This document shows, piece after piece, positions 16,426 through 19,231 of a stretch of 64,000 nucleotides of DNA. The DNA lies in NCBI RefSeq assembly GCF_009914755.1, contig NC_060935.1. One strand, 5' to 3'. The notes under the pieces were generated by a model. That model was given only the letters and a program-made list of their open reading frames with translations. It was not told the origin of the DNA and did not search any database. The position numbers and the translations under genes were made by a program. This DNA is from the human T2T-CHM13v2.0 reference genome, Homo sapiens. Numbering within the stretch: the stretch's first letter is position 1; every line of letters starts with the position of its first letter.

Positions 16426-17233
16426 TGTTAGCAATTGTAATAAGTATGTAATAGTACCTCATTATCACTTCAATTTGCATTTTCTGAATGACTATATTTT
16501 CATGGGCTTATTTGTCATATATTTTTGATGAAATGCCTTCTTAAATCTTTTGGCTATTTTTAAATCTAGTTGTTAAGTTTTGACAGTTTTTTATATATTC
16601 TAGATGGAAGTCATTATTGGATATGTATTTTGTGTAAATATTTTTTGCACAGTCCATGGCTTGTCCTTTCATTTTAAACAGTGTCTTTCAAAAAAGTTTA
16701 TAGTGTTGATGAAGTTCATTTTATCAATTGTTTCTCTCATTGATTGTGCTTTCACTGTCATACCTAAAATATTTCTCCTGTTTTCTTCTAGAAGTTTTAG
16801 AGTTTTAAGTTTTACATTGAGGTTTATGATCTATTCTTAGTTAACATTTGTACATTATGTGAGGTATGGGTCAAGCTTTATTTGCTTATGGATATCCAGC
16901 AGTTTCTGTACTATTTGTAGAAGACTGTAGATTGAATTACCTTTGAACATGTGTCAAAAGTCAGAGAACAGTTATGTCAGTCCATTTCTGGAGTCTGTTT
17001 TCTTTCACTGATCTTTGTGCCTATCCTTTCAGTAGTACATTAGTCTCTTGATTAATGAATATTTAGCCTTGAAATCAGATCATGTAAGTCTTCTTAGGTC
17101 TTTTTTTTTTTTTATTTTTAATGTCTTTGGCTTTCTTGTTCCTTTGCAGTTCCATATAAATTTTTAGACTTAGCTTATTTCTACAGAATAATCAAGATGA
17201 GTTTTTATTAGCGTTGCATTAAATCTAAAGATC

Positions 17234-17909
17234 TTCTTTTGTATATGTGTCTTTTAACACTGTTTTACATAAATTAGTGTGTGTATTCATGCACTGAAAT
17301 AACATTCTCAAATGAGTGCCCAAGTAACAATCTAAGAAACTCTTTTATACATTTGTATTTAAACAAAGTTTTACATGCATTACATCATAGTGAATACATT
17401 CATTTACTGAAATAATACTACCAACAAGCTGTACAAGTAGAACTCCTACATCATCTTTTATACATGGGTCTTTACATGCATCATTTGTGGTGAACTCAGA
17501 TGTGGCCTCCATATTAATGTGAGTAAACAGTGTTGAAAGACAAAGATGCAGAAGAAATATCTGAGTGAAACTTCCACACCAAATTGAGAACAGTGTTATT
17601 TCAGTAAAGGTATATTGAACACGGTAGTACATGTTATACAGAGTTTAAAGTCACACATGTAAAAGTGTTGCTGAGAGTGCCGCTTGTGTACCAGGTTGAA
17701 AATGGTGTTATTTCAGTGACTGGAGGTATTCACTAGTATGCAATGATGTAAAACCTGTTTTTAAACACGTGTATAAAAGATGTTTCCAAAGTGCTACATG
17801 GACATCAATTTGAGAAACATGTTTTTAGTGTACAAATGTGTTCACTCTATTCAAACAATGTTTAAAGATACCTAAATAAAAGATGTTTCTAGAACTGCTA
17901 TTTATAGAC
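17234..17909 (+). repeat. Unidentified 676-bp insertion of ~110-bp diverged tandem units with an internal inversion
   Basis: TSD aaatctaaagatc at 17221-17233 and 17910-17922; actgaaataa at 17293 and 17406; its reverse complement ttatttcagt at 17596 and 17708. Confidence 0.8.
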
Positions 17910-18572
17910 AAATCTAAAGATCAATTTTGGGAAATTTCACATCTTAAAAATACTGTGTCTTGCAATATGTAAACATGGTGTGTCTTAAGGTTTTTTATTT
18001 CTTTTATCAGTCTTCTGTAGGTTTCAGCATACAGAACTTACAAAGATTTTGTTAGATATACTTCCATGTAATTAACATTTTTAGTACATTATAAATAGTA
18101 CTGTTTTTATAACTTGAATTTCCATTTGTTTATTCCAGTGTATACAATTATTTCATATTGACTTAGCTTCCTATGAGGGTGCTAAATTCATTCTAGTAGT
18201 TTTTTGTGATCTCATTGAGATTTTTTTATATAGTCAATCATGTCATCTGTGACTATTTTTTAGTATTTTAGTTCTGTCTTCAGTATACTGGTCTTTTTCT
18301 TGTATGCCTTGGTCTAGTTTGGATTAGACTAATGCTGGTATAATTAGGTGAGTTGGAAAGTTGTTCCTTATTTTCTATTTTCTGGAAGAATTTCAGTAAA
18401 ACTGGTATTATTTCTCCTTAAATATCTGATAGAATTATCCAGTGAAGTCTTTAGGCTTTGAGCTTCCTTTGTTGGAAAGTTTTAAATTATGAAATCTATT
18501 TTTTAAGAGGTATAGAGCTATTCAGGTTGTTTCTTCTTGAGTGAGCCTTAGCACTTGGTGTCTTTCAAGAAT

Positions 18573-18928
18573 ATACCATTAAATATTACACAGCCATAAA
18601 AAAGAATGAAATCATGTCCTTTGCAGCGGCATGGATGGAGCTGGAGGCCATAATCCTAAGCAAATTAATGCAAGAACAGAAAACCAAATACCGCATGAGT
18701 ACACATGTGCACAAAGTAGAGAACAGTAGACATCGGGCCTAGCTGAGGGTGGAGGGTGGGATGAGGATGAGGATGGAAAAACTACCCATCAGGTACTATG
18801 CTTATTATCTGGGTGATGAAATAATTTGTACAGCAAACCCTAGTAACACACAATTTACCCATGTAACAAACCTGTACATATCCCCCCCAAACTAAAATAA
18901 AAAATAAAAGTTGGAAAGAAAAAAAAAA
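18573..18928 (+). mobile_element. Short L1 3' end (L1PB/L1MA-like) with A tail
   Basis: 'cagccataaaaaagaatgaaatcatgtcc...ctaaaataaaa' plus poly(A). Confidence 0.85.
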
Positions 18929-19231
18929 CGTTTATATCATCTAAGTTGTGGAATCTATAGGCATAATATTCTATGGACAGAATTGTTCACAATATTACCT
19001 TGTTTTCCTTTTAATATCTATAGGATCTGTAGTCCCTTCTTTCCTGATAGCATAACTTGTATTCTCCATTTATCTCTTAGTCTGGCTACTGGTTTATCAT
19101 TTTCATTGATTATTTTTCTATTTTTAATTTCATTTTTATTATTTTGTTCCTTCTGCTTGATTTGGGTGTACTTTTTTGTTTCTTAAGGTAGATGCTTATT
19201 TTTTTTTAAGTATATGGGAAGTTGACATTTC

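What the first reader, a model, noticed from the sequence alone, without database searches (positions are those of the whole stretch)
17221..17922. Unidentified 676-bp fold-back insert: ~110-bp repeats flipping orientation, 13-bp TSD, terminal AATAAA
Seen: an old L1 (...ttgcatt aaatctaaagatc aattttggg...) is split by a perfect 13-bp duplication. The insert has forward units starting tctttt(a/g)ta at 17235, 17341 and 17454; after ~17500 come reverse-complement units (ttatttcagt at 17596 and 17708, degenerate at 17820; aaaag(a) ends at ~17555, 17665, 17780, 17883). The empty site is TT|AAAT (L1-endonuclease-like) and AATAAA (17875-17880) lies 29 nt before the right junction; no clear poly(A) remains. 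I cannot match it to a repeat family I know. Inference: a twin-primed L1-mediated retrocopy of the 3' end of a repeat-containing transcript, or an unannotated fold-back element. If transcribed it could form a long imperfect hairpin.
Basis: partly seen in the sequence, partly recalled or inferred. Interest (0 to 1): 0.75.

Follow-up and report, generated by a model that had tools for sequence, protein, structure and literature searches.

The report
Fold-back retrocopy of unnamed tandem repeat
This 676-base insert, sitting inside an old LINE-1 between two identical 13-base flanks, is made of ~112-base repeat units that flip direction midway; it is likely an RNA from an ancient, scattered and possibly uncatalogued human repeat family that LINE-1 copied from both ends at once, which would make any transcript of it fold into a long hairpin.

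Summary
Observation confirmed. A perfect 13-bp duplication (17221-17233, 17910-17922) bounds about 2.4 units of a ~112-bp repeat on the minus strand and 3.6 on the plus strand; they meet at a sharp flip at 17498/17499. One copy of the duplication restores a continuous L1 at an endonuclease-type site. The plus arm ends AATAAA + 29 nt, and the left junction matches the family's continuation at 6 of 7 bases: the marks of twin priming. The unit belongs to a genome-wide family: degenerate arrays on chr7 (three places), chr8 and chrX, and 23 dispersed 0.5-2.3-unit copies, 11 with A-rich 3' ends and 5 with clear target duplications. Each unit carries a poly(A)-signal-like cassette. The insert groups with the dispersed copies, not with the chr7 twin arrays or chr8, so the parent array was not found. 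The hairpin (z -6.4) comes from the inversion alone and shows no strand bias. Alpha-satellite, zinc-finger and Rfam kinship were not supported. Dfam/Repbase and primate orthologues could not be checked. Known mechanism, unusual template; possibly an uncatalogued family.

The parts
17121..17220 (-). Host old L1, ORF2 region, left flank
   Evidence: Aligns continuously with the right flank to other L1-type copies once the insert and one duplication are removed; translation matches only L1 ORF2p 822-860, weakly, E 0.12-0.27
17221..17233 (.). Left target-site duplication; its last bases pair with the family's continuation at 6 of 7 positions (second-primer microhomology)
17234..17332 (-). Inverted arm, unit La (ends at the internal priming point)
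   Evidence: Model built without window units: 44.8 bits, E 7e-15
17333..17445 (-). Inverted arm, unit Lb
   Evidence: 42.6 bits, E 3e-14
17446..17498 (-). Inverted arm, half unit Lc (model positions 51-112)
   Evidence: 8.5 bits, E 0.001
17498..17499 (.). Inversion junction, no spacer; both arms begin at model position 50-51
17499..17562 (+). Non-inverted arm, half unit R0
   Evidence: Weak by model (E 0.07-0.7); its end is 84% complementary to 17234-17265 over 32 nt
17563..17674 (+). Unit R1
   Evidence: 55.1 bits; 89% over 54 nt to the chr12 copy L006
17675..17788 (+). Unit R2
   Evidence: 51.6 bits; R1-R2 collinear with the two-unit chrX copy L003, 73% over 178 nt
17789..17895 (+). Unit R3 (last unit)
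   Evidence: 20.1 bits
17875..17880 (+). AATAAA at the position where the units carry a TATAAA/AATAAA hexamer
17896..17909 (+). 3' end: start of the next unit and a decayed A-rich remnant, at the point where sister copies begin their tail
17910..17922 (.). Right target-site duplication
17923..18029 (-). Host old L1, right flank
   Evidence: reading frame runs on through the duplication; no PDB match for this short piece

Best explanation
The insert is a stretch of six ~112-bp tandem units, the first 2.4 inverted, that was likely copied from a polyadenylated array RNA by LINE-1 twin priming into an older L1. Shown: duplication, restored target, flip point, unit order, family of sister copies and arrays. 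Inferred steps: (1) a now decayed or lost array was transcribed in the germ line, and because each unit holds UGUA, a TATAAA/AATAAA hexamer and a GU-rich tract downstream, the RNA ended at one of many units; (2) L1 endonuclease nicked the bottom strand at ATTT/AA; (3) one reverse transcriptase primed on the tail and copied R3 back to half of R0; (4) the top-strand end paired with an internal unit by about 3-7 bases and copied 2.4 upstream units in the opposite sense; (5) the two cDNAs were joined. Because the template was tandem, the two arms are mutually complementary, so the product is a fold-back. It is most likely a neutral fossil, tens of millions of years old (units 72-80% identical to the family majority), whose hairpin is a by-product.
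For: Restored site aligns across the junction to L1-type copies (scores 115, 115, 112 against the best three). Nick site differs at one base from TTTT/AA, and 13 bp is near the 14-16 bp peak (PMC2912911). Left junction 6 of 7 match, model runs 3 bases into the duplication; that paper reports 2-5 bp microhomology in about 70% of 5'-inverted L1s. Of 23 dispersed loci with unit hits, 11 have at least 11 A in 15 nt within 60 nt downstream, against 4 of 23 upstream and 3 of 23 for T downstream; 6 of 23 have a flanking repeat beaten by at most 2 of 22 mismatched pairings, 5 after dropping a low-complexity one. In 14 copies picked for inspection, 9 end 15-30 nt past the hexamer position, read by eye, as the insert does. 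All 23 are in one orientation. Un-inverting the left arm raises the fold from -194.3 to -142.6 kcal/mol, the level of array and flank controls (-126 to -148).
Against: The parent array was not found: insert units average 63.8% to dispersed units, 57.9% to the chr7 array and 52.0% to chr8, so contiguity of the two arms in one RNA is not shown. No real poly(A) tail remains. 12 of 23 dispersed loci have no clear A-rich end and 17 of 23 no clear duplication. The best arm alignment pairs Lb with R2 and La with R3, which also fits a second copy of the 3' end. No orthologous empty site and no expression data were available.
Confidence: 0.8

Rival explanations
1. Dual priming: two RNA molecules (or the same 3' end twice) were copied from the two nicks, so the left arm is an inverted second copy of the right arm's last units.
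For: Best collinear register is Lb-La against R2-R3 (72% over 188 nt); the tree pairs Lb with R2 and La with R3, support 0.70 and 0.73. The mechanism was proposed in PMC2837659.
Against: Shared departures from the family majority do not single out these pairs: Lb-R1 11, Lb-R2 10, Lb-R3 10, La-R3 10, La-R1 8; the highest identity is La-R0, 39 of 51. No T-tract at the left end.
Confidence: 0.08
2. A fold-back DNA transposon or tandem-repeat MITE whose long inverted arms are built of repeats.
For: Arms of repeated units in inverted order, flanked by a duplication.
Against: The termini are not mirror images: the left stops inside a unit, the right runs about 20 nt into the next unit. 0 of 23 other loci are folded back. 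Sister copies end in A tails.
Confidence: 0.04
3. An ordinary 5'-truncated retrocopy whose left part was inverted later by repair or recombination.
For: Tandem units invite rearrangement; the insert is old.
Against: The outer end of the inversion falls exactly on the duplication, with microhomology to the family's continuation.
Confidence: 0.04
4. Whatever its origin, the insert is now a selected RNA hairpin or poly(A) element in long ZNF215 transcripts, whose intron covers it on the plus strand.
For: Fold z -6.4, 168 long-range pairs, longest helix 17 bp; AATAAA in the ZNF215 sense (gene table given by the hub).
Against: G.U 17 against A.C 15 among 244 aligned columns, and both strands fold alike, z -6.4 and -6.8; only 181 of 244 columns are Watson-Crick; no Rfam match.
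Confidence: 0.08

Closest known systems
5'-inverted (twin-primed) L1 insertions and mRNA retrocopies (PMC2912911; PMC2837659)
   Same: Duplication of about 13-16 bp, endonuclease-type site, inverted 5' part and non-inverted 3' part, microhomology at the 5' junction.
   Different: The template is a non-coding tandem array, so the two parts are complementary and the whole insert folds back; the source locus is not identified.
Retrocopies of non-coding multi-unit transcripts, e.g. the mir-302-367 cluster host gene (PMC7692494, abstract and outline seen)
   Same: L1 retrocopies of a non-coding RNA, some ending at alternative 3' ends.
   Different: No microRNA or other Rfam family in the units; the repeat itself supplies the poly(A)-like signal.
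Transduced or dispersed satellites of T2T-CHM13 such as WaluSat (64 nt) and ajax (49 bp) (bioRxiv 10.1101/2021.07.12.451456, passages seen)
   Same: A repeat present both as arrays and as dispersed monomers, with retrotransposition in its history.
   Different: Unit length about 112 bp, units only 57-68% alike, copies carry their own tails with no Alu or L1 carrier. The paper's repeat table (supplement) could not be seen.
Unclassified ancient Repbase repeats (Eutr, EUTREP, MARE, MamRep564/605, MER35; names listed in PMC5753468)
   Same: Old, low-copy, unclassified human repeats.
   Different: No sequences were available to compare; membership is open.
Alpha satellite (171-bp unit; name recalled, period shown by TRF)
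   Same: Shares a ~22-nt motif at the unit junction.
   Different: No significant alignment beyond it; different period.

Membership tests
Twin-primed L1 retrocopy | Target-site duplication of about 7-20 bp that restores the target when removed | tested here: met
Twin-primed L1 retrocopy | Bottom-strand nick at a TTTT/AA-like site on the tail side | tested here: met
   ATTT/AA, one mismatch (consensus from PMC2912911)
Twin-primed L1 retrocopy | Inverted 5' part joined directly to non-inverted 3' part | tested here: met
   flip at 17498/17499
Twin-primed L1 retrocopy | Microhomology between target end and internal RNA site | tested here: met
   3 exact, 6 of 7 against the family's continuation, judged from sister units, not the true parent
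Twin-primed L1 retrocopy | Poly(A) tail after a signal | tested here: inconclusive
   AATAAA at the right spacing, tail decayed; tails clear in sister copies
Twin-primed L1 retrocopy | Both parts contiguous in one parent RNA | tested here: inconclusive
   parent not found
Twin-primed L1 retrocopy | Empty site in outgroup species | not testable with these tools
   no other mammalian genome held
Fold-back / MITE DNA transposon | Mirror-image termini | tested here: not met
Fold-back / MITE DNA transposon | Other copies with the same two-armed structure | tested here: not met
   0 of 23 dispersed loci; search not exhaustive
Alpha satellite kin | Alignment beyond chance to a 171-bp monomer | tested here: not met
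   score 48.5; 70 and 112 of 500 shuffles as high; median of 358 genomic controls 46; no model hit at E 5. One 351-bp sample only.
Decayed C2H2 zinc-finger array | Similarity to zinc-finger DNA (84-bp period) | tested here: not met
   No model hit in the ZNF214 or ZNF215 exons at E 1; no C2H2 pattern in 80 kb around the chr7 arrays
Rfam RNA families | Covariance-model match | tested here: not met
   0 matches in 16900-18200 at E 5; 38 matches in 7 loci, none on the units, mostly on Alu-type interruptions
Any Dfam/Repbase human repeat | Match to a library consensus | not testable with these tools
   no repeat library held

The most novel reading that the evidence does not exclude
The ~112-bp unit is an uncatalogued, extinct primate repeat family of its own kind: tandem arrays in which every unit is a poly(A) cassette, transcribed in the germ line and scattered by L1 as tailed monomers to trimers, a hybrid of satellite and SINE. 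This locus then shows a one-step route by which twin priming turns an array RNA into a long-hairpin gene.
Probability: 0.4. Interest if true: 0.65.

Novelty: new variant of a known kind. Interest (0 to 1): 0.45.

Why it matters
If the family is absent from Dfam/Repbase, a repeat with at least five arrays and over twenty retrocopies is still unannotated in the complete human genome, and it records a lost germ-line transcript datable by nested Alus and primate orthologues. The locus also makes a general point testable: twin priming of any tandem-repeat RNA yields a ready-made fold-back, a simple origin for hairpin RNAs and double-stranded-RNA substrates. The insertion mechanism itself is well known and function here is not shown.

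Tried and rejected
Alpha-satellite kinship, suggested by pericentromeric hits: not significant. Zinc-finger origin, suggested by a recalled CxxCxxxF look in one frame: no hit. Rfam: none. chr7 twin arrays as parent: best window 236 against median 164 for the right arm, but lower identity and a separate branch. Patterns aimed at the parent subtype found no array: 5, 0 and 3 matches; one search was noise (150 against 124 control). DNA searches score few candidates (4, 12, 9, 9), so absence is weak. Assigning left-arm units to right-arm units: unresolved. Of 42 distinct loci brought in by seeds, 16 had no unit hit and 3 only the seed motif; these 19 were dropped. In the first alignment two rows had wrong coordinates; it was redone, and one search left those rows out. 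Paper searches that found no description of the family; they match words only and miss most subscription journals.

Full report
Repeats with 106-114 spacing and many inverted pairs fill the 676 bp between. The left arm aligns to the reverse complement of the right arm at score 214, against a maximum of 104.5 in 300 shuffles. TRF misses the array because the units are only 56-73% alike. A model built from copies outside the window finds five full units and two halves: 17234-17498 on the minus strand, 17499-17895 on the plus strand, meeting with no spacer.

The target. Removing the insert and one 13-mer in a script gives a sequence that aligns straight across the junction to three L1-type copies. 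The left flank's translation matches only L1 ORF2p 822-860, weakly (E 0.12-0.27); the short right piece has no match, though the frame runs through the duplication. The bottom strand reads ATTT/AA at the nick, one base from the TTTT/AA consensus given in PMC2912911 (first 10,000 characters and passages read). At the left junction the duplication's end matches the family's continuation at 6 of 7 bases. At the right end AATAAA lies 29 nt before the duplication and only an A-rich remnant is left.

The family. Searching the genome with the insert gave a two-unit chrX copy (73% over 178 nt, present twice in an inverted duplication) and a chr12 piece (89% over 54 nt). Patterns gave 32 matches against 3 control, 23 against 5, 47 against 0 and 70 against 12. 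Of 42 distinct fetched loci, 23 hold unit hits longer than the seed, 11 of which had helped to train the model. They hold half a unit to about 2.3 units, all in one orientation. 11 of 23 have an A-rich 3' end and 5 of 23 a clear duplication; in 14 chosen for inspection, 9 end, by eye, 15-30 nt past the hexamer position and 4 at the A-rich hexamer itself. Arrays exist at C7:51.58 and C7:55.77 Mb (30 unit hits each over 5.8 kb, inside a 14.7-kb duplication at 96.9%), C7:55.80 Mb, C8:18.38-18.39 Mb and C23:47.056-47.058 Mb (5 motif hits each; 5 and 4 unit hits in the pieces fetched, none in the reversed control). Copies are 67-84% identical to the majority of the others, and one carries a single Alu-type monomer and a dimer inside it, so the family is old; an age of tens of millions of years is inferred, not measured.

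The parent was not found. In a tree of 51 units of 79 nt or more, the insert's 5 units and 15 of 16 dispersed units form one group (support 0.95) apart from the chr7 55.77 Mb and chr8 arrays; the chrX and chr7 55.80 Mb units were too short to enter. The parent may be an array seen only in part, or lost.

Mechanism. Most units show UGUA, a TATAAA/AATAAA-type hexamer, and a GU-rich tract in the next unit; that this is a working poly(A) cassette is inferred from established 3'-end rules and from where the copies end. An array RNA was likely caught by L1 and primed at the tail and at an internal unit. Since the template was tandem, the inverted part is complementary to the rest. The fold is -194.3 kcal/mol (z -6.4, 20 shuffles), and -142.6 when the left arm is turned back, like array and flank controls. 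Both strands fold alike and G.U and A.C oppositions are 17 and 15: no sign of selection on an RNA structure. By the hub's gene table the insert lies in an intron of long ZNF215 transcripts, in sense, so the hairpin could form in pre-mRNA; no expression data were at hand.

Rivals. Dual priming (PMC2837659, passages read) fits the Lb-R2 and La-R3 pairing, but shared changes do not single it out. A fold-back transposon fails on termini and on the other copies. A later inversion would not be expected to end exactly at the duplication.

Comparison with what is known. 5'-inverted L1s and retrocopies are common (30.9% of 2,068 young L1s in PMC2912911). What differs is the template and its result. Alpha-satellite, zinc-finger and Rfam kinship were tested and not supported. 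Nine word searches (listings seen) found no description of this family. I put the chance that it is already in a library at about 40-50%.

Verdict: real; a twin-primed retrocopy (0.8) of an old, dispersed ~112-bp tandem family, probably a neutral fossil; interest 0.45, higher if the family proves uncatalogued.

Noticed in passing
G000:C7:51,571,998-51,586,627 and C7:55,761,617-55,776,246 (L049-L052, L076-L079): A 14.7-kb duplication at 96.9% identity, 4.2 Mb apart, carrying a 30-unit array interrupted by Alu-, L1- and LTR-like inserts (labels recalled from their look).
   Followed up: partly
G000:C8:18,376,015-18,393,834 (L081 in part): Motif hits spread over 11-18 kb suggest the largest array of the family, of a more distant subtype (52% to the insert's units).
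   Followed up: partly
G000:C23:47,056,153-47,058,369 (L080 in part): Minus-strand array whose junction motifs recur about 1.8 kb apart, suggesting an internal duplication; by recalled coordinates, unverified, it would lie in an ELK1 intron in sense.
   Followed up: partly
L003:1472-2049 and L002 (C23:71.285 and 71.302 Mb): The two-unit chrX copy sits in both arms of an inverted duplication, and an Alu landed in its right target duplication, giving three copies of the target motif; by recalled coordinates, unverified, this is the DMRTC1 palindrome.
   Followed up: partly
L054:1286-1990 (C5:113.885 Mb): A copy of about two units with two nested Alu-type insertions, each with its own duplication: useful for dating.
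   Followed up: partly
C7:43,992,373; C7:146,918,461; C23:133,030,849-133,030,903; C13:31,913,593-31,913,737; C12:101,077,417; C20:46,112,984; C5:139,528,369; C10:72,258,328: Further close motif matches that are probably more copies; not fetched.
   Followed up: no
L014, L026, L035, L044, L048, L058: Several sister copies also appear to lie inside old L1 sequence (recognised by eye, recalled), as the insert does.
   Followed up: no
window 18570-18930: The minus-strand L1 gives way to what looks like an L1 3' end on the plus strand with an A-rich tail (recalled look; short repeats).
   Followed up: no
L040:2054-2099: Weak histone 3' stem-loop match (28.3 bits, below the 34-bit cut-off), 440 bp from the chr18 copy.
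   Followed up: no
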